37,772 bases of DNA from a virus (Duplodnaviria > Heunggongvirae > Uroviricota > Caudoviricetes), in IMG/VR virus record IMGVR_UViG_2690316076_000005, positions 1 through 37,772 of that record. One strand, written 5' to 3'. Position numbers and translations under genes: made by a program. The notes beneath the pieces were generated by a model. It searched no databases. It was given only the letters and a program-made list of their open reading frames with translations, and was not told where the DNA came from. This document shows, piece after piece, positions 3,628 through 35,082 of this stretch (position 1 is the first letter of the stretch; each line of letters opens with the position of its first letter).

Positions 3628-4042
3628 GCGTTATCGCACTCCACAGATCATCAAAAGAAATCATTACCGGTCCGTCACGACGCCAGAGAGTGATACTGTT
3701 ACCCAGTTCATTAATCCCGGTGCGGCGGATATCCAGATCAATACGGGACACCACGCCATCATCAATCATCCATTGCAGGCATTCGCGGATATACCCCCTT
3801 ACCGTCTGCACCAGCTGATTGGTCAGTTTGCTGCGCTGAAGCAGCCACAGTCGGGAGCCGTAACGGTCATTCTGTACCGCAGGCCAGGTATCCCCCCACC
3901 ATCCCATCGGGACGTCGGCGTTGTCATCAGGCTCCGCCCGCCGCCAGGTAAACAGGGAAATCACCACGGCGCGGGTCAGCGGATCCAGCTGTGCGCTGGC
4001 GCAGGTGCGTTTACCGTTCACCGTCAGCCACAGTTCCATCAT
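3614..4042 (-). CDS. Mu gp46-like baseplate protein
   Basis: 142 aa; synteny between the V-like and J-like genes; overlapping start and stop. Confidence 0.65.
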   Translation of the reverse strand: MMELWLTVNGKRTCASAQLDPLTRAVVISLFTWRRAEPDDNADVPMGWWGDTWPAVQNDRYGSRLWLLQRSKLTNQLVQTVRGYIRECLQWMIDDGVVSRIDLDIRRTGINELGNSITLWRRDGPVMISFDDLWSAITHGGQ

Positions 4043-4587
4043 GCCTCCATCGCTTTATCCGGTTTGTCGGTGTTACTGCCCTGACCGTTCTCTCTGTGAC
4101 GATGCCCGTTATAGGCAAGCCGCATCGCTGACATGGTGGTGCCGCCGGAGTCGCACAGGTCTTTCACCTGTCCGGTCACTTCCAGGTCCATTTCAAAACG
4201 TGCTTCAGGTGCATTGCGAAACGTGATCGTTTTACCTGCACCGTCCACCACGATCCCCTCCCGGGTCAGCGTCACGGACTGCCCCTGATCGTCATAGACA
4301 GCCACCTCACCCGTCTGCAGCCCTTTCAGGCGGTAGCGACGGTCCGACACCGTAACAACCACCGCATGAGAACGGTCGCCATCCGGAAACAACACCACCG
4401 CTTCCGCACCGCTGTTTGCCCTTGCGGTAAAACCGTAGGGTTCAAGATGTTCAACCCCGGCTTTGGGTTCACCGGCAATCAGGGACACATCCACGGTCTG
4501 ACATTTCGTGGCGGCACTGATGCTTTTCACCACGGCCCGCCCAATCAGGCCGAGGAGTTGTCGCTGCATGGCTTCAATCGTCCTCAT
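4039..4587 (-). CDS. baseplate assembly protein V-like (Mu gp45)
   Basis: 182 aa; gpV-like beta-rich N-terminal part; synteny. Confidence 0.7.
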   Translation of the reverse strand: MRTIEAMQRQLLGLIGRAVVKSISAATKCQTVDVSLIAGEPKAGVEHLEPYGFTARANSGAEAVVLFPDGDRSHAVVVTVSDRRYRLKGLQTGEVAVYDDQGQSVTLTREGIVVDGAGKTITFRNAPEARFEMDLEVTGQVKDLCDSGGTTMSAMRLAYNGHRHRENGQGSNTDKPDKAMEA

Positions 4588-5666
4588 CAGAACGGGTCCT
4601 CCTGTACTCTGGCTTTTTTCTTTTTCCGCGCGCCGGGGGCTTCGGGTTCAGGCAGATAAGCATCAGGCGGGCCGACACGGATTTCCGTCAGGGTGCCGTT
4701 CTGGTCCTGAGTAAACGTGACTTCCGAAACAAGCAGTTCGGTATTGTCGAAACCACAGACCGGATCAAAGACAATCACCCGCTGGTTGGGCTGCCACAGC
4801 GTACCGTTACCCTGTCGCCAGCCCTGCACCACATAGGTGGTTTCATCCGTCCGCGCCGCCCGTTGTCGGGCTTCAAAGTCCGCACGGGCAATACAACCTG
4901 CCCCCGTAGCCTGCCCTGTCTGCCTGATATACATCGGACGGTAACGGGCAATAAATGCGTCCTCTGTGCGGGCCCGCAGCGCGGTGGTGGTGGCCTCACC
5001 GAAATCATCGTCGTTTCCGGCACGCTGCCCCGCCACCTGGTAAACTGAAAACCGCTCCCGGATACTCTTCTCCGTATCACAGGAAAGGATGTTTTCCCCA
5101 AGTACCAGCGCGGTATGTGCCCGCGTTGAGCCAATACCACCAATCACCAGCCTGCCGTGCGGGTCGTCATAAGCCAGCGCCTGCTGCTGACCGAGTATTT
5201 TGTTGATCACCTCGATCACCGTTTCACCGTGATCAGGCTGGACGTCAGGAATAACACCCGACGGCGCACCGTTGTTCACCACCTCAATGCCGAAAGGCGC
5301 AGCAAGCGCCTGCGCTATCTGTACCAGCGATCGTCCGTTAAACTGTGTCGGTTCGGCTGCACAGTCAATCAGGTCTGCCGTCAGACTACGTCCGGCAATA
5401 CCGGTGCTGACCGAACGGGCATCGTAACGAACGGGAGTCGCCTCCACCCAGCCGGTGATCACCAGCTCATCACCAATCAGCACCTCCACTTTTGAACCGT
5501 TTTTAATGCGCGGCTGAAGCGTGGTGATACCCTCATCACCCGGCCACTGGCGGGTGATCTCCACACTGAAATCCCGCGCCAGCCGTTCAATACCGGCACC
5601 GATGCGCACCGATGTCCAGCCATTCCACTCCCGGTCATTTACCCGTAGCGTGACATTGTCGTTCAT
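4587..5666 (-). CDS. Mu gp44 (P)-like baseplate hub / tail protein
   Basis: 359 aa; synteny downstream of the DNA-circularization-like gene. Confidence 0.6.
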   Translation of the reverse strand: MNDNVTLRVNDREWNGWTSVRIGAGIERLARDFSVEITRQWPGDEGITTLQPRIKNGSKVEVLIGDELVITGWVEATPVRYDARSVSTGIAGRSLTADLIDCAAEPTQFNGRSLVQIAQALAAPFGIEVVNNGAPSGVIPDVQPDHGETVIEVINKILGQQQALAYDDPHGRLVIGGIGSTRAHTALVLGENILSCDTEKSIRERFSVYQVAGQRAGNDDDFGEATTTALRARTEDAFIARYRPMYIRQTGQATGAGCIARADFEARQRAARTDETTYVVQGWRQGNGTLWQPNQRVIVFDPVCGFDNTELLVSEVTFTQDQNGTLTEIRVGPPDAYLPEPEAPGARKKKKARVQEDPF

Positions 5667-27216: not shown

Positions 27217-28209
27217 TCACCCCCTGAATCCTGCCGGGATCTGGCTGTAGTCCACGTTGTCGTAACTGGCTTTGAAGTACGGGTCTTCACGTTTTTCTGT
27301 GTGCGTGCTGACGGACGGCGATAAGCGCAGGGAAAGCTCATCCCATTTTTCCCGCAACTTCGACGGGCTGAGCACGTTACGGCACCAGAACGGATCGCGG
27401 CTGACGCGGCTGTACATCTCGCAGATTTGTTTGTGAGTACGACCATCCTGCACACACATCAGGCGAATTTCGTTTGCCCATGCTGTCCAGTTCGGCTCTT
27501 TGGGACGAACCACCTCGCCGTCACATTCGGCGGCCTGCTCGTACAGGGCGATGATTTTTTTCCAGAGCCACTGTGCGCAGGTCAAATCATCCTGCGTTCC
27601 CCACTGGCGCTTTTTAGGGCTGAATACAACCGCATCAGGATGGCGAGTTAAAAACTCCTGTTCAGCCGTTTGCATGTCCGGTTGCGAAGCGTCCGGACGA
27701 GAAGAGGTTTTATTCTCTGTAGTAATCTCTGTTGTATTCTCTGTAAGATCATTGGGCCATTTTGACCCGATGACAGCGTGTCGTTTTGAACCAATGGATC
27801 GTGTCATTTTGCGCCCATCCATCAGGTCACTTTGACCCGATGGAGAAGTGCATTTTGACCTGATGGATTCGTTCACTTTGACCTCTTCTAAAAGCTCACT
27901 TTCATAGTTGATCGTGTAGAAGTTGGTCATGTCACGCTTCGATTTATTGAGTTGCTCGCGACGCAAAACCCCAAGTGATTTCAGGCTTGCAAATGTGCGT
28001 TTCAGAGTGGACTCTGACCAGAACGGAAACTGCTCCAGCCACTGTTCTGTCGTGTTATAAACCCAGCGAATTCCGCCATGCTCAGTGCCTGAATTCGTTT
28101 CATTCAGCCAGTAATGAAGCTGCTGCAACACAATTGCCTCATTCAGACCAATACGGCATGCAAGATCACGATTTATCACAATGGGCTGGGATGTCATTAA
28201 CAGGCTCAT
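27217..28209 (-). CDS. replication initiation protein (O-like N-terminus, DnaT-like C-terminus)
   Basis: 330 aa; iteron array inside the gene; C-terminal region resembles the primosomal DnaT-like domain seen in prophage replication proteins. Confidence 0.7.
   Translation of the reverse strand: MSLLMTSQPIVINRDLACRIGLNEAIVLQQLHYWLNETNSGTEHGGIRWVYNTTEQWLEQFPFWSESTLKRTFASLKSLGVLRREQLNKSKRDMTNFYTINYESELLEEVKVNESIRSKCTSPSGQSDLMDGRKMTRSIGSKRHAVIGSKWPNDLTENTTEITTENKTSSRPDASQPDMQTAEQEFLTRHPDAVVFSPKKRQWGTQDDLTCAQWLWKKIIALYEQAAECDGEVVRPKEPNWTAWANEIRLMCVQDGRTHKQICEMYSRVSRDPFWCRNVLSPSKLREKWDELSLRLSPSVSTHTEKREDPYFKASYDNVDYSQIPAGFRG
27758..27883. repeat. iteron array (candidate origin of replication) inside the replication gene
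   Basis: Six copies of about CAyTTTGACCyGATGG at about 23-bp spacing (27758, 27782, 27804, 27828, 27851, 27874) plus one inverted copy (27817-27827). Confidence 0.7.
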
Positions 28210-29358: not shown

Positions 29359-29455
29359 ATAACCTCCACATATTGCGTGATGAGCATATTATTTCACGCA
29401 AATATTTTGCGCAAGTTGATTTGCTTAACGCGCAATAAAGAAATGTAATAAACGC
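29359..29455. promoter_or_regulatory. divergent cI/cro promoter-operator region
   Basis: TTGCG/CGCAA half-sites at 29373, 29397, 29407 and a perfect TTGC-N6-CGCAA 15-mer at 29421-29435. Confidence 0.6.
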
Positions 29456-30148
29456 ATGAACATAGGAAATCGAGTCAGACAACTTCGCCAGGCGAAGAAC
29501 ATGAAAATCGCCGATCTCGCTGAAGCAATAGGAGTGGATGCGGCGAATATCTCGCGCCTCGAAACAGGTAAGCAGAAACAATTCACTGAACAAGCCCTGA
29601 GTAATATTGCCAGGAGCTTAGGTGTTGATATTGCTGATCTCTTTACCTCAGACCTCAAAAGTAATACTGTATGTAAAAACAGTATTAGTGAGGATGTTGC
29701 GCAGGTGAAGGATGTATTCCGTATTGAAATGCTGGATGTCAGTGCCAGTGCGGGAAATGGCCTTATCCAGGGCGGTGATGTCATTGATGTGATTCATGCC
29801 ATTGAATACAGAACTGATAATGCTGTATCGATGTTTGGTGGACGACCAGCAAATCACATTAAAGTTATCAACGTTCGTGGGGACAGTATGTGTCCAACCA
29901 TTGAGCCAGGAGATCTCATCTTCGTTGATATCAGTATCAATCAGTTTGATGGGGATGGTATATATGTATTTGGTTTTGATGATAAAATTTACGTCAAACG
30001 ACTGCAAATGATACCTGATAAACTGCTGGTAATTTCTGATAATCAGATTTACCGCGAATGGGGAATTACCAGCGAAAACGAACACCGGTTTATGGTCTTT
30101 GGAAAGGTCTTAATCAGTCAGTCACAGACCCTTAAGCGACACAATTAA
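29456..30148 (+). CDS. CI-type repressor (HTH plus S24 LexA-like autopeptidase domain)
   Basis: 230 aa; N-terminal HTH; C-terminal VRGDSMCPTIEPGDLIFVD and later K typical of S24 peptidases. Confidence 0.9.
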   Translation: MNIGNRVRQLRQAKNMKIADLAEAIGVDAANISRLETGKQKQFTEQALSNIARSLGVDIADLFTSDLKSNTVCKNSISEDVAQVKDVFRIEMLDVSASAGNGLIQGGDVIDVIHAIEYRTDNAVSMFGGRPANHIKVINVRGDSMCPTIEPGDLIFVDISINQFDGDGIYVFGFDDKIYVKRLQMIPDKLLVISDNQIYREWGITSENEHRFMVFGKVLISQSQTLKRHN

Positions 30149-30170
30149 CCCCCTACCTCAACATCAATTA

Positions 30171-30191
30171 GCCACCAGAAGGTGGCTTTTC
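30171..30191 (+). terminator. intrinsic terminator downstream of cI
   Basis: GCCACC-AGAA-GGTGGC followed by TTTTC. Confidence 0.7.
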
Positions 30192-30204
30192 ATTACCCAC
30201 CAAA

Positions 30205-30256
30205 TTGCACATCTCGCAATAAAACACTTGCATAATACGCAACTTCATTTTATCTT
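30205..30256 (+). promoter_or_regulatory. candidate OL/PL
   Basis: Two 15-mers TTGCACATCTCGCAA (30205-30219) and TTGCATAATACGCAA (30228-30242) share TTGC-N6-CGCAA with the OR site; possible -35 TTGCAT and -10 TATCTT (30251-30256) at 17-nt spacing. Confidence 0.45.
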
Positions 30257-30450
30257 TCTTTCCAGACCTACAAACAAGGTACTAACAAAATTTGGTTGTA
30301 ACACGGTGCATGTGTCGTAAGCAGTCAGTAAATGTCAAAAACGAACAAGCAGGACGCCCACGAAGTAGCCGCCTGGGGCATATGAAGTCAAGGATGATTC
30401 GTTGAGTCATGTAGTGCCACTAGGCACTCATGTTAAAGCAGGTGTATGAA

Positions 30451-30726
30451 ATGAAAGTCCAGATTTTAAACAATAACTGTGAAGTCGTTTGGTCATACGA
30501 CATAGCCGCCCCTGTAGATCAGAGCGGCGATAGCTGGGCCAATGGGAAACATCAGATTATGGCTGGAGTTGTATTCTCTTTACGCCGTGCTTTAGAACAG
30601 GCTGAAGTCTTTCCATCAGACCCTGAATGGAAATGGCCTTTTTCTATTTGTCCAAATTCGGAGAGTACATTTCAGAAAATTGGTCAGAAAGTCGCACTCG
30701 AAGAGCATCAGCCAACTGTTTCCTGA
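30451..30726 (+). CDS. hypothetical protein in the rex/N position
   Basis: 91 aa from the second ATG with SD aggtg; not arginine-rich, so not obviously N-like. Confidence 0.35.
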   Translation: MKVQILNNNCEVVWSYDIAAPVDQSGDSWANGKHQIMAGVVFSLRRALEQAEVFPSDPEWKWPFSICPNSESTFQKIGQKVALEEHQPTVS

Positions 30727-30889
30727 TTTTTTCAGGTAACTCGTCGGCATCGCAGAAACAACAACGCTCGATCATGTTGAAAGCCGATTCGTAGAACTGT
30801 TTCTGCTGAGTGTCGCTGACACAGGAAAAGAGCGACGTTACGATGATTTTATTAATTGCATTATCAAGTTCTTTTTCATCAAAAGTCAT
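30644..30889 (-). CDS. hypothetical protein, convergent and 3-prime-overlapping with the previous ORF
   Basis: 81 aa; ATG with SD-like aagga; overlaps 30451..30726 by 83 nt on the opposite strand, so at most one may be genuine. Confidence 0.3.
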   Translation of the reverse strand: MTFDEKELDNAINKIIVTSLFSCVSDTQQKQFYESAFNMIERCCFCDADELPEKIRKQLADALRVRLSDQFSEMYSPNLDK

Positions 30890-31142
30890 TTGATTTTCCT
30901 TTTATGTATACGGGCTTAAAAGGATACCACCGAGCCTGAAGTGGTGAAAAGACAGGCACATAACAGCTAAGTATTTTCAACCAGAGAGAATCCTTAGCGT
31001 TGTGGTGAATGCGGCTCAGCGCACGCGGGTTAAGGTTGAGGCTGACAGTCGACCTTCTGTGGATACCCACCCGCCTGGTGTGCAACCTTCGCCAGGCACC
31101 GGGAGGCACCCGGCACCACAACTTTATGCTGTGTGTAGTCCT

Positions 31143-31189
31143 GGCGGTACCAGCTTGTATCCTTGCTTCCGGCTGGTACCGTCCTTTTT
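31143..31189 (+). terminator. candidate intrinsic terminator (tL1-like) in the early-left leader
   Basis: 10-bp perfect stem cggtaccagc/gctggtaccg (12 bp with G-U), 17-nt loop, then C and TTTTT (31185-31189). Confidence 0.5.
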
Positions 31190-31278
31190 ACAAAACAGAG
31201 AAGAGCATCACCGGACGACGGGCTCATAACCCAATCCATCCGGGCGGCTGCCACCGCTGGTGTTCTTCTCTGTTTTGT
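31190..31278 (+). other. long-range inverted repeat / structured leader element
   Basis: caaaacagagaaga (31191-31204) pairs perfectly with tcttctctgttttg (31264-31277); encloses about 55 nt of GC-rich sequence; ends 36 nt before the SD of the first early-left gene. Confidence 0.45.
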
Positions 31279-31326
31279 GGAGAAACCAACCGACCTTGCA
31301 GGGTCGATATAATGAGGAGCAGCAAA

Positions 31327-31689
31327 ATGGCTAGCGAACGCAGTACTGATGTGCAGGCATTTATCGGGGAGCTGGACGGCGGCGTATTTGAAACCAAAAT
31401 CGGCGCAGTTCTCAGTGAAGTCGCTTCCGGTGTGATGAACACGAAAACCAAAGGTAAGGTCTCACTCAACCTGGAAATCGAACCATTTGATGAGAACCGT
31501 GTGAAAATCAAACACAAACTCTCATATGTTCGCCCGACTAACCGCGGGAAAATTTCCGAAGAAGACACCACCGAAACGCCGATGTATGTCAATCGCGGTG
31601 GTCGCCTGACTATTCTGCAGGAAGACCAGGGACAGTTACTGACTCTTGCCGGTGAACCTGACGGAAAACTCCGCGCAGCAGGTCGTTAA
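31327..31689 (+). CDS. YfdP-like early protein
   Basis: Start at the ATG with SD gaggag; the track's upstream extension from 31009 has junk-like composition; followed by YfdQ/YfdR-like genes. Confidence 0.5.
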   Translation: MASERSTDVQAFIGELDGGVFETKIGAVLSEVASGVMNTKTKGKVSLNLEIEPFDENRVKIKHKLSYVRPTNRGKISEEDTTETPMYVNRGGRLTILQEDQGQLLTLAGEPDGKLRAAGR

Positions 31690-34397: not shown

Positions 34398-34889
34398 ATG
34401 ACAGCACTCAACAAACAGGTGCTGCTGAGCACCGATAAACACGCAAATCAGCACCGACTTTCTCGCCTTACCATGGAAGTGCATAGCGATGAGCTTCGTA
34501 TTATAGCGTCAGCAGTAGAGAGCTATACCGACGAGTTGATAGCAGCGCTGGAAGCCGCAGAGAAGCGCAACGCAAAATTACAAAGCGAGAATGCATACAT
34601 CCGAAACCGGTTCAAAGAACTGGACCTGTTAATCGGGAAAAACATTCTGGTCATGCAGGCTGCGATTATCGAATGGCAGGCAACTGGCGACGCTAAAAGC
34701 GGACTGGCATGGATTTATAACACACTGTTTGGCCCTGGCGAATTGCCGGACGAATCTGAGAAAGATGCTCAGGCCTACTTTAATCGCAAATATGCACCGA
34801 TTGACGAAAAGCTTATGGCGCTTCACAAGTGGTTTTGGGAACAAAGTGAAGCCGAGCGCGCCGCTGGCATTCGCATAAAAGGAGAGTGA
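34398..34889 (+). CDS. Ea22-like / hypothetical coiled-coil protein
   Basis: 163 aa; N-terminus MTALNKQ; C-terminal AAGIRIKGE resembles the AAGIRKREI end of the previous gene. Confidence 0.45.
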   Translation: MTALNKQVLLSTDKHANQHRLSRLTMEVHSDELRIIASAVESYTDELIAALEAAEKRNAKLQSENAYIRNRFKELDLLIGKNILVMQAAIIEWQATGDAKSGLAWIYNTLFGPGELPDESEKDAQAYFNRKYAPIDEKLMALHKWFWEQSEAERAAGIRIKGE

Positions 34890-34890
34890 T

Positions 34891-35082
34891 ATGAACGGAC
34901 AAATCTCAATTGTTCGACCGGGAGCATGTGACGATCGCGAGATACGAATGATTATTCGTCTGGCGATGGGGAAAACAATAACAGCTCTCATTACTCCAGA
35001 AAATCTCGCATTAGCTTTAACCGGAAAGTCAGACCTGCCAGTAGAGCTAAAGCTGCGAAATGTTGAGATTAAGGTGAAATAG
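34891..35082 (+). CDS. hypothetical small protein
   Basis: 63 aa, tightly packed in the operon. Confidence 0.4.
   Translation: MNGQISIVRPGACDDREIRMIIRLAMGKTITALITPENLALALTGKSDLPVELKLRNVEIKVK

What the first reader, a model, noticed from the sequence alone, without database searches (positions are those of the whole stretch)
30192..30900. Rex-position cargo next to cI: two convergent, 3-prime-overlapping ORFs of unknown function
Seen in sequence: downstream of the cI terminator and the candidate OL/PL lie a 91-aa plus-strand ORF and an 81-aa minus-strand ORF overlapping by 83 nt. In lambdoid phages this position holds exclusion or immunity cargo (rexAB) or the N antiterminator. The plus-strand ORF is not arginine-rich, so it does not look N-like. 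I cannot tell which ORF is real.
Basis: partly seen in the sequence, partly recalled or inferred. Interest (0 to 1): 0.5.

Follow-up and report, generated by a model that had tools for sequence, protein, structure and literature searches.

The report
Convergent gene pair in N/sieB slot
Both overlapping reading frames next to the phage repressor are real, conserved genes: one is the first early-left gene and the other sits where lambda and P22 carry their sieB exclusion gene, with the same conserved control region, but what either protein does is unknown.

Summary
A 91-aa plus-strand ORF (30451-30726) and an 81-aa minus-strand ORF (30889-30644) converge and overlap by 83 nt. In nine diverged lineages (Escherichia, Salmonella, Klebsiella, Yersinia), substitutions pile up at the plus frame's third codon positions where only the plus ORF lies. 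They pile up at the minus frame's third positions where only the minus ORF lies (p = 2e-5 and 5e-7; pN/pS 0.34 and 0.28). The two start codons are exactly 439 nt apart in 10 of the 11 lineages aligned.

The position is not the rex position. The pair lies downstream of the candidate OL/PL. The plus ORF occupies the slot of lambda N / P22 gene 24 but has no arginine-rich motif. The minus ORF occupies the sieB slot. Its upstream region is homologous to the sequence upstream of sieB in P22 and lambda, which is the template of the P22 antisense RNA sas.

The same leader precedes at least 12 unrelated small cargo genes in other prophages. Neither protein matches any known family, defence model or fold. 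The most likely reading is a prophage-expressed accessory (exclusion-type) gene under antisense control, facing an early lytic gene. It is a new variant of a known arrangement; the function is inferred, not shown.

The parts
30170..30187 (+). Terminator hairpin after the cI-type repressor gene (AGCCACC-AGAA-GGTGGCT followed by TTTTC).
   Evidence: terminator scan. SfV and SfII annotate the same site as a terminator.
30205..30256 (+). Candidate OL/PL. Two operator-like sites TTGCN6CGCAA lie at 30205-30219 and 30228-30242. The candidate promoter has -35 TTGCAT (30228-30233), a 17-nt spacer and -10 TATCTT (30251-30256).
   Evidence: (the same motif occurs in OR at 29421-29435) and the sequence. 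The promoter is inferred: it matches 7 of 12 consensus positions and was not reported by the scan.
30340..30405 (+). Conserved structured leader between PL and the plus ORF (AACGAACA...GCAGGACGCCCACGAAGTAGCCGCCTGGGGCAT...GGATGATTCG).
   Evidence: It is shared with L002, L009, L011 and L019. RNAalifold predicts an outer stem CGAACA/UGAUUCG and an inner hairpin, with 3 covarying pairs. Its function is unknown.
30451..30726 (+). Plus ORF, 91 aa (SfV orf33, phrog_3195, WP_021563905). It is the first gene of the early-left (PL) operon, in the N/gene-24 slot, and is not N-like.
   Evidence: Homologues are 49-68% identical. Plus-frame third positions are the most variable where only this ORF lies (50/64 against 35/64 and 24/64, p = 2e-5); pN/pS is 0.34. 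In every locus where the repressor is visible, it is the first homologue-bearing gene downstream of the repressor.
30644..30889 (-). Minus ORF, 81 aa (phrog_3311). It is not annotated in SfV or by PGAP in E. coli. It is convergent with the plus ORF and sits in the sieB slot.
   Evidence: Homologues are 57-63% identical and lie at the same place in every locus examined. Minus-frame third positions are the most variable (48/54 against 26/55 and 23/54, p = 4.6e-7); pN/pS is 0.28. The AF2 model is a three-helix protein with pLDDT 66.
30644..30726 (.). Dual-coding overlap of 83 nt. In the core 30664-30705 both proteins are conserved (plus ...FQKIGQKVALEE; minus ...LRVRLSDQFSEM).
   Evidence: There is no significant codon periodicity here (p = 0.24), and diversity is highest at the minus-frame third position (0.358 against 0.245 and 0.250). 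The two start codons are 439 nt apart with no indels in 10 of the 11 lineages aligned (436 nt in L020).
30897..30924 (-). Hairpin pairing the minus ORF's Shine-Dalgarno region (minus strand: UCCUUUUA, 30923-30916, with UAAAAGGA, 30904-30897).
   Evidence: The arms change in a compensating way between lineages and between cargo types (UCCUUC/GAAGGA, UCCUUG/CAAGGA, UCUUGG/CCAAGA, ACCUCA/UGAGGU). Which strand's RNA is under selection is not resolved.
30926..30957 (-). Conserved sieB-type upstream element. On the minus strand it reads GCCTG TCTTTTC ACCAC TT CAGGC TCG GTGGT, with two interleaved stems: S1 30957-30953 with 30938-30934, and S2 30945-30941 with 30930-30926. Its complement corresponds to the 3' domain of the P22 sas RNA.
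   Evidence: blastn gives 94% identity over 35 nt to P22 29650-29684, to lambda, to HK620 and others. Searches give the P22 and lambda context. One search gives the P22 sas sequence from PMC13397905; 89.9% of cells are paired against 29-50% in the slid controls, and 5 pairs change on both sides. Rac has a copy with a compensated S1.
30921..30948 (-). Candidate promoter of the minus ORF: -35 TTCACC (30948-30943), 16-nt spacer, extended -10 TGgTATCCT (-10 hexamer 30926-30921). The predicted start is near 30914.
   Evidence: This is inferred from the sequence and from analogy with the mapped P22 sieB promoter and start site (annotation, sequence). It scores below the threshold of the scan and has not been tested.
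30851..30965 (+). Region expected to give a sas-like antisense RNA across the minus ORF's start codon, Shine-Dalgarno sequence and leader. A candidate promoter is CTGACA-17-TACGAT at 30816-30844.
   Evidence: One search gives the promoter-like site. One search shows that P22 sas, 127 nt by RNA-seq, covers the equivalent region. folds the region. One search shows the candidate promoter is not conserved in most lineages, so the 5' end is uncertain and the RNA may instead be processed from the PL transcript.

Best explanation
The locus is one allele of the convergent 'N slot facing sieB slot' module at the start of the early-left operon of lambdoid phages.

Shown:
- Both ORFs are protein-coding genes under purifying selection.
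- They are inherited together in a fixed geometry.
- The plus ORF is the first gene after the repressor gene and the candidate OL/PL.
- The minus ORF carries the upstream element found in front of sieB in P22, lambda and Rac. Its complement forms the 3' part of the P22 antisense RNA sas.
- The same element precedes many unrelated small genes in other prophages.

Inferred:
- The minus ORF is a prophage-expressed accessory gene of the exclusion (sieB-slot) type. It would be transcribed toward cI from a promoter inside the conserved element.
- On induction, or on superinfection by a homologous phage, transcription from PL reads through it in antisense.
- A sas-like RNA covering its ribosome-binding site then shuts off its translation, while the plus ORF protein is made as the first early product.

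Most speculative step: the plus protein acts on the minus protein or its pathway as an escape factor, as Esc does for SieB.
For: Coding status of both frames:
- Codon-position periodicity switches strand exactly where the ORFs switch (p = 2e-5 and p = 4.6e-7).
- pN/pS is 0.34 for the plus frame and 0.28 for the minus frame, against 0.5-2.0 for the wrong frames.
- Both ORFs stay open in all diverged loci.

Linkage and geometry:
- All 17 database loci fetched through either protein also carry the other ORF, as does the 100-aa/84-aa pair called in L194.
- The two start codons are 439 nt apart in 10 of the 11 lineages aligned.

Slot:
- The plus homologue is the first homologue-bearing gene downstream of repressors of several different types.
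- lambda N/sieB, P22 24/sieB and Rac ydaF/sieB show the same convergent layout.

Regulatory homology:
- The 35-nt element is 94% identical to the region upstream of sieB in P22 and lambda.
- It is contained in the RNA-seq-defined sas RNA (PMC13397905).
- sas is reported to switch translation of sieB (PMC12197685 and PMC7067206).
- The stems are supported by compensating changes.

Portability:
- The same element stands in front of 13 clusters of unrelated cargo proteins in 103 IMG/VR loci. Each cluster has mostly its own convergent partner.
Against: - There are no transcript, start-site or protein data for this phage or its close relatives.
- In P22 the mapped sieB promoter lies about 35 nt downstream of the conserved element, so the promoter I propose inside the element is an extrapolation.
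- The candidate promoter for a sas-like RNA is not conserved.
- Folding energy does not say which strand's RNA structure is selected.
- The minus protein is small, acidic and soluble-looking, unlike SieB. It hits no PADLOC, Pfam or NCBIfam model.
- Co-inheritance of the two ORFs could follow simply from their physical overlap.
- PGAP and the SfV authors annotate only the plus ORF.
Confidence: 0.6

Rival explanations
1. Only the plus ORF is a gene, as annotated by SfV and PGAP. The minus ORF is an accidental open frame on the antisense strand.
For: SfV annotates only orf33 and PGAP annotates only WP_021563905. The first protein search found only near-identical or frameshifted copies of the minus ORF.
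Against: In 30727-30889 the minus-frame third position is the most variable (48/54 against 26/55 and 23/54, p = 4.6e-7) and pN/pS is 0.28. Real homologues of 57-63% identity exist in Salmonella, Klebsiella and Yersinia, some of them annotated by NCBI. The minus ORF has its own Shine-Dalgarno sequence and the conserved sieB-type leader. The poor first search has an explanation: gene callers extended the plus ORF to 122 aa across the minus ORF.
Confidence: 0.03
2. Only the minus ORF is a gene. The plus ORF is an open stretch of leader in the PL transcript.
For: SfII and some other phages annotate a minus-strand gene here and have lost most of the plus ORF.
Against: In 30451-30642 the plus-frame third position is the most variable (50/64, p = 2e-5) and pN/pS is 0.34. 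Homologues go down to 49% identity with conserved motifs. The Shine-Dalgarno sequence is good. The domain also occurs fused to other N-terminal domains.
Confidence: 0.02
3. Both are genes but functionally independent: an early lytic gene and a prophage accessory gene that travel together only because their 3' ends overlap.
For: The overlap alone makes separation by recombination costly. In other alleles one partner type (the ClpX-finger protein) faces two different cargo types. In lambda and P22, N/24 and sieB have unrelated functions (established knowledge; layout).
Against: The plus-ORF domain stays attached to this particular minus ORF even when its N-terminal half is exchanged, for a ClpX zinc finger in L019 and for an MEFKDLP domain in L018. 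Cassette exchange in SfII replaced both partners together. Neither point is decisive.
Confidence: 0.3
4. The plus ORF is this phage's N-equivalent antiterminator of a non-arginine-rich type. It would be needed to read through the strong terminator at about 31145-31192 to reach yfdP-yfdQ-yfdR-xis-int.
For: It is the first PL gene, in the N/gene-24 slot. A structured conserved leader precedes it. A terminator-ended STnc100-like RNA follows it.
Against: It has no arginine-rich motif and is net acidic, and it hits no antiterminator family. The family is small: 19 representatives among 1.84 billion proteins. It is replaced in sister phages by unrelated proteins with the same flanks, which is unexpected for an essential regulator.
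Confidence: 0.08
5. The pair is a rexAB-like two-component exclusion system.
For: It lies close to cI and consists of two small genes of unknown function.
Against: It lies downstream of the cI terminator and OL/PL rather than between cI and OL. The genes are convergent, not an operon. There is no similarity to RexA or RexB and no PADLOC hit. Neither sequence shows an evident membrane-spanning segment (read from the sequences; no dedicated predictor was run).
Confidence: 0.03

Closest known systems
P22 sieB / esc / sas with convergent gene 24 (and lambda sieB with N; Rac sieB with ydaF)
   Same: The genomic slot and orientation are the same: the first PL gene faces a counter-oriented gene, 3' end to 3' end. 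The non-coding element upstream of the counter-oriented gene is homologous, at 94% over 35 nt. That element lies within the sas antisense RNA, which spans the ribosome-binding site of the gene.
   Different: The minus ORF (81 aa, helical, acidic) has no similarity to SieB (about 160-190 aa). No internal esc-type in-frame start is evident. The 3' ends overlap by 83 nt instead of abutting. P22 and lambda have a duplicated hairpin unit, with the mapped promoter in the second copy, whereas this phage has one copy. Exclusion activity has not been tested.
Lambda N / P22 gp24 antiterminators
   Same: The plus ORF holds the same position, as the first gene transcribed from PL after a structured leader.
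   Different: It has no arginine-rich RNA-binding motif, no sequence similarity and a net negative charge. It is a small, sporadic family rather than a conserved regulator.
Lambda rexA-rexB
   Same: Both are accessory cargo adjacent to the repressor gene.
   Different: rexAB lies upstream of OL/PL, is co-transcribed with cI and is co-directional. Here the genes lie downstream of PL and converge. There is no homology.
Phage 'morons' (promoter-gene-terminator accessory cassettes)
   Same: This is a small accessory gene set against the surrounding operon, apparently with its own promoter, and exchangeable between phages. At least 12 alternative cargos sit behind the same leader.
   Different: The cassette is embedded antisense in the 3' end of an early gene and shares a conserved antisense-RNA control region. 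It is not flanked by its own terminator.

Membership tests
N-type antiterminators (lambda N, P22 gp24) | N-terminal arginine-rich motif that binds a boxB hairpin | tested here: not met
   The sequence MKVQILNNNCEVVWSYDIAAP... has 2 Arg in 91 aa and none in the first 40 residues.
N-type antiterminators (lambda N, P22 gp24) | Sequence similarity to known N proteins | tested here: not met
   No Pfam or NCBIfam hit. The PHROG family has no assigned function.
N-type antiterminators (lambda N, P22 gp24) | First gene of the PL operon, downstream of OL/PL and a leader | tested here: met
   Layout. The same position is seen in loci with other repressors.
N-type antiterminators (lambda N, P22 gp24) | Antitermination activity at downstream terminators | not testable with these tools
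   This needs a read-through reporter assay.
SieB superinfection-exclusion proteins | Sequence similarity to SieB | tested here: not met
   No Pfam, NCBIfam or PADLOC hit for the minus ORF.
SieB superinfection-exclusion proteins | Counter-oriented gene convergent with the first PL gene | tested here: met
   Window layout compared with lambda, P22 and Rac.
SieB superinfection-exclusion proteins | Conserved upstream element shared with P22 and lambda sieB | tested here: met
   blastn gives 94% identity over 35 nt; sequences read.
SieB superinfection-exclusion proteins | Internal in-frame start giving an Esc-like antidote | tested here: inconclusive
   Met39 is invariant in the aligned homologues. 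No upstream Shine-Dalgarno sequence was examined for it, and the product would be only about 43 aa.
SieB superinfection-exclusion proteins | Aborts lytic growth of superinfecting phages | not testable with these tools
   This needs plating assays.
sas-type antisense RNA | RNA on the PL strand complementary to the ribosome-binding site of the counter-oriented gene and ending in the conserved S2/S1 element | tested here: inconclusive
   The template sequence is present and homologous to the 3' part of P22 sas. Transcription, ends and promoter are unknown here, and the candidate promoter is not conserved.
RexAB | Located between cI and OL/PL and co-transcribed with cI | tested here: not met
   The pair lies beyond the cI terminator (30170-30187) and the operator-like sites (30205-30242).
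RexAB | Homology to RexA or RexB | tested here: not met
Type II toxin-antitoxin pair | Co-directional bicistronic operon with similarity to known toxin or antitoxin families | tested here: not met
   The genes are convergent, and there are no family hits.
STnc100 (RF02076), neighbouring feature at 30969-31192 | Score at or above Rfam's gathering threshold | tested here: inconclusive
   The score is 42.4 bits against a threshold of 47, E = 1.4e-7, with a full-length match to model positions 1-206. It was absent from the gathering-threshold search.

The most novel reading that the evidence does not exclude
The two proteins form a matched exclusion/escape pair. The minus protein would be a prophage-expressed abortive-infection or exclusion effector of a new kind. 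The plus protein, made first from PL, would be its specific antidote, and a sas-like antisense RNA would provide the switch. More broadly, the conserved sieB-type leader would mark a hypervariable defence slot in lambdoid prophages of Enterobacterales. That slot holds at least 12 unrelated effector families, each facing its own early-gene partner, some of which carry ClpX-type zinc fingers.
Probability: 0.25. Interest if true: 0.7.

Novelty: new variant of a known kind. Interest (0 to 1): 0.5.

Why it matters
- It settles an annotation question. Reference annotations (SfV, and PGAP for E. coli) miss a conserved gene because it lies antisense in the tail of another gene. In some prophages gene callers hide it entirely by extending the plus ORF across it.
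- It gives a clean natural case of about 40-80 nt of true dual coding on opposite strands, with both products conserved.
- It shows that the sieB/sas control region known from P22 and lambda is a portable platform in front of many unrelated small genes. That turns a one-phage curiosity into a searchable marker for prophage accessory or defence cargo.
- It gives clear, cheap experiments for two protein families that currently have no function.

Tried and rejected
- **Family and structure searches found nothing informative for either protein.**
  - Pfam, NCBIfam and PADLOC gave no significant hit.
  - The PDB sequence-profile search found nothing for the minus ORF and only E >= 0.01 noise for the plus ORF.
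  - The AF2 model of the plus ORF is too poor to search with (pLDDT 45).
- **The scan of species-representative genomes found no relative**. The module is absent from the one-per-species genome set.
- **Riboswitch-like pseudoknot reading, superseded.** I first read the conserved element as a riboswitch-like pseudoknot in the 5' UTR plus a hairpin hiding the Shine-Dalgarno sequence. The element turned out to be the P22/lambda sieB upstream/sas region. It also precedes unrelated cargos, which argues against a metabolite sensor.
- **boxA resemblance, dropped.** The loop CUGCUUUUAAC resembles boxA, but this is a recalled likeness on the wrong strand for N action.
- **Folding energies do not identify the structured strand**.
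- **The candidate promoter for the antisense RNA (CTGACA-17-TACGAT) is not conserved across lineages**.
- **Roberts, Allison and Verma 2007 (J Gen Virol 88:3187), not usable.** The paper on transcription-termination immunity in SfV could not be read; it is only cited in PMC3475682. The SfV record labels orf37, on the PR side, as 'immunity region'. That system is therefore probably elsewhere, and the orf37 region is different in this window.
- **The SfV record's 'terminator' feature is not convincing as a terminator.** It maps to about 30877-30909 and coincides with the minus ORF's start and leader hairpin.
- **An extended codon test was saturated and replaced.** The test that included out-of-register lineages was replaced by the nine in-register lineages.
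Full report
**1. The observation**

The window is an SfV-like lambdoid phage. Phage SfV is 98% identical over 30337-31330.

On the plus strand, a cI-type repressor gene (29456-30148; HTH plus Peptidase_S24) is followed by these features:
- a terminator hairpin at 30170-30187;
- two operator-like sites, TTGCN6CGCAA, at 30205-30219 and 30228-30242, with the same motif in OR at 29421-29435;
- a candidate PL promoter, TTGCAT-17-TATCTT, which overlaps the second site (read; inferred).

Downstream lie the two ORFs as described. The plus ORF is 30451-30726 (91 aa, or 98 aa from 30430). The minus ORF is 30889-30644 (81 aa). They overlap by 83 nt, and both have good Shine-Dalgarno sequences.

ORFs of this length are common by chance in this sequence, so the question is conservation.

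**2. Both frames are real genes**

Annotation is split:
- SfV (orf33) and PGAP (WP_021563905) annotate only the plus ORF.
- SfII annotates only a minus-strand gene at this place.
- PHROGs holds a family for each ORF: phrog_3195 for the plus ORF and phrog_3311 for the minus ORF.

Protein searches found genuinely diverged plus-ORF homologues at 49-68% identity. For the minus ORF, the first search found only near-identical or frameshifted copies.

Reading the DNA of the diverged plus-ORF loci explained this. Each carries a minus-strand ORF of 75-85 aa homologous to the window's minus ORF. Gene callers had hidden it by extending the plus ORF to 122 aa across it. A profile search then recovered minus-ORF homologues in Salmonella, Klebsiella and Yersinia.

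All 17 database loci fetched through either protein, outside the near-identical E. coli group, contain both ORFs. A further pair of 100 aa and 84 aa is called in L194. The distance between the two start codons is 439 nt in 10 of the 11 lineages aligned, and 436 nt in L020.

In nine in-register lineages the substitution pattern switches strand where the ORFs switch:

| Segment | Most variable codon position | Variable sites | Other two positions | p |
|---|---|---|---|---|
| Plus ORF only | plus-frame third | 50/64 | 35/64 and 24/64 | 2e-5 |
| Minus ORF only | minus-frame third | 48/54 | 26/55 and 23/54 | 4.6e-7 |

pN/pS is 0.34 for the plus frame and 0.28 for the minus frame. The wrong frames give 0.5-2.0.

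In the overlap there is no significant periodicity (p = 0.24). Diversity there is highest at the minus-frame third position (0.358 against 0.245 and 0.250). Both protein tails remain conserved across about 40 nt. This is true dual coding, which explains the frozen geometry.

**3. What slot this is**

In every locus where the repressor is visible, the plus ORF is the first homologue-bearing gene downstream of it and on the same strand. The repressors and the cro/cII-type neighbours are of several different kinds. In one Salmonella prophage a separate 384-aa cargo gene sits between the repressor and the pair. That gene, not the pair, is in the rex position.

The pair therefore lies at the head of the PL operon. 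The plus ORF holds the slot of lambda N / P22 gene 24, and the minus ORF faces it. Three known arrangements have the same layout:
- lambda N (35438-35037) and sieB (34482-35036);
- P22 gene 24 and sieB;
- Rac ydaF and sieB, with a 4-nt overlap.

**4. The conserved non-coding element**

A non-coding stretch lies immediately upstream of the minus ORF, at window 30897-30957 read on the minus strand. It is more conserved between lineages than the coding sequence. It reads GCCTG-TCTTTTC-ACCAC-TT-CAGGC-TCG-GTGGT-ATCC. A hairpin follows whose 3' arm is the Shine-Dalgarno region.

Both interleaved stems and the hairpin show compensating changes. 89.9% of cells are paired, against 29-50% when partners are slid, and five pairs change on both sides. 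The lineages are few and related, so this is supportive rather than conclusive.

I first read this as a pseudoknot-type 5' UTR. Two results changed that view.

First, an exact-pattern scan of IMG/VR found the element in more than 120 contigs. There it stands in front of 13 clusters of unrelated small proteins (a membrane protein, zinc ribbons, 122-aa helical proteins and others). In each case the hairpin arms co-vary with the local Shine-Dalgarno context. In 11 of the 13 contexts listed, this is the same counter-oriented position near the repressor. SfII is one such allele. It keeps the first 22 codons of the plus ORF and the upstream element, but has a different convergent pair between them.

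Second, blastn of the element hits P22 (29650-29684), lambda, HK620, HK446 and many others at 94% over 35 nt, directly upstream of sieB. Rac sieB has a diverged copy with a compensated stem.

In P22 the RNA-seq-defined antisense RNA sas is 127 nt long and lies on the PL-direction strand. It begins at the sieB start codon and ends just beyond the complement of this element (PMC13397905). sas is reported to switch translation between the SieB and Esc products of sieB (citing Ranade and Poteete 1993, which I could not read).

The element is therefore the sieB-slot control region. The minus ORF is a non-SieB cargo in that slot.

**5. How it most likely works**

Shown:
- There are two real genes, convergent and overlapping.
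- The plus ORF is first after the candidate PL.
- The minus ORF lies behind a sieB-type upstream region.
- The complement of that region matches the 3' domain of sas.

Inferred:
- The minus ORF is transcribed in the lysogen from a promoter inside the element. The promoter would be -35 TTCACC (30948-30943), a 16-nt spacer, and an extended -10 TGgTATCCT (30926-30921). This would place the start near 30914, the position equivalent to the mapped P22 start.
- On induction or homologous superinfection, PL transcription runs antisense through the gene.
- A sas-like RNA over 30885-30960 then blocks its ribosome-binding site.
- The plus protein is the first early product.

The conserved hairpins could serve the antisense RNA, the mRNA, or both. 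Folding energy does not discriminate between the strands. A candidate promoter for the antisense RNA exists in the window (30816-30844) but is not conserved, so the RNA may be processed from the PL transcript.

Whether the plus protein counteracts the minus protein, as Esc counteracts SieB, is speculation. The plus-ORF domain stays with this minus ORF even where its N-terminal half is replaced. In L019 the replacement is a ClpX-type zinc finger (PF06689, 30.3 bits). In L018 it is an MEFKDLP domain. Physical overlap could explain that equally well.

**6. What the proteins are**

Neither protein has a hit in Pfam, NCBIfam or PADLOC, or any meaningful hit among PDB sequences.

The minus protein is predicted as three helices at modest confidence (pLDDT 66). 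Fold searches with that model gave only generic helical matches. Its CCxC motif is not invariant in the most distant homologues, so zinc binding is doubtful.

The plus protein model is unreliable (pLDDT 45). An exhaustive HMMER search of 1.84 billion representative proteins found only 19 relatives. This is a small family, seen here only in prophage contexts like those above.

Both proteins are small and net acidic (counted from the sequences).

**7. Comparison and novelty**

The arrangement and its control region are known from P22, lambda and Rac. The two proteins are not known.

The plus ORF fails the defining tests for N: no arginine-rich motif and no homology. The minus ORF fails the homology test for SieB. 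The pair also fails the position test for Rex.

I rate it a new variant of a known kind. It is a new cargo-and-partner allele of the N-slot/sieB-slot module, with an unusually long dual-coding overlap. I did not find the observation that the sieB/sas region is a portable leader for many cargo families in the papers I could search. I could not read the primary sieB papers.

**8. Neighbouring features**

- 30969-31192 (plus strand) matches the prophage sRNA family STnc100 over its full length, but below Rfam's threshold: 42.4 bits against 47, E = 1.4e-7. It ends in a strong hairpin followed by a U-run. PGAP calls this stretch a frameshifted pseudogene. STnc100 copies are transcribed in E. coli O157:H7 grown in standard culture (PMC5331693) and are related to PasD sRNAs (bioRxiv 10.64898/2026.05.13.724894).
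- A conserved structured leader lies between PL and the plus ORF at about 30340-30405.

**9. Limits**

There are no expression data for this phage. The promoters and RNA ends are inferred. The function of both proteins is unknown. The covariation rests on a handful of related lineages.

Noticed in passing
window 30969-31192 (+): This GC-rich stretch matches Rfam STnc100 (RF02076) over the whole model at 42.4 bits, below the gathering score of 47 (E = 1.4e-7). It ends in a long hairpin plus U-run at about 31145-31192. PGAP annotates the homologous stretch as a 'frameshifted hypothetical protein' pseudogene. STnc100 is a multicopy prophage sRNA related to PasD.
   Followed up: partly
window 30340-30405 (+): This roughly 65-nt element in the PL leader is shared with SfII, Salmonella prophages and metagenomic prophages. 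Its predicted consensus fold has an outer stem CGAACA/UGAUUCG and an inner hairpin with covarying pairs. The frame EQAGRPRSSRLGHMKSRMIR* is also open across it. Its function is unknown.
   Followed up: partly
IMG/VR loci L195-L314 (for example L200, L201, L217, L236, L203, L209, L224, L272): The sieB-type upstream element (CCACNTCAGGCNNGGTGGTATC) precedes 13 clusters of unrelated small proteins. In 11 of the 13 contexts listed it is counter-oriented near the repressor, and most clusters have their own convergent partner ORF. It looks like a hypervariable accessory slot marked by a conserved leader.
   Followed up: partly
L019 2-664; L204 and L236 partner ORFs; L018 4001-4579: Several first-PL-gene proteins begin with a ClpX-type C4 zinc finger (PF06689; 26.7-37.5 bits against a cut-off of 27). 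In L019 this finger is fused to the plus-ORF domain. In L018 a different N-terminal domain (MEFKDLP...) is fused to it.
   Followed up: partly
L002 (phage SfII) 2827-3340: SfII keeps the first 22 codons of the plus ORF (then a stop) and keeps the upstream element. Between them it carries a different convergent pair: a 68-aa plus ORF and the 63-aa SfII_36, overlapping by 39 nt. The cassette exchange has one junction inside the plus ORF.
   Followed up: yes
L005-L010 (plus ORF 4001-4369): In several prophages the plus ORF has lost its stop codon and reads on for about 30 more codons, antisense through the minus ORF, giving 122 aa. Gene callers then annotate only this long form, which hides the minus gene from protein databases.
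   Followed up: yes
window 30412-30427 (+): A perfect 6-bp hairpin, AGTGCC-ACTA-GGCACT, lies immediately upstream of the first ATG (30430) of the plus ORF and 24 nt before the preferred start at 30451.
   Followed up: no
L001 (SfV record) orf37, record 27243-28079: The SfV GenBank record labels orf37, on the PR side, as 'immunity region'. The 2007 paper on transcription-termination immunity in SfV could not be read here. The orf37 region is replaced by SfII-like genes in this window.
   Followed up: no
L013-L015 (Yersinia) 4336-4826: Between the pair and yfdP, Yersinia prophages carry an 86-aa ORF on the PL strand and a convergent 77-aa ORF. The window has the STnc100-like RNA at this place.
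   Followed up: no
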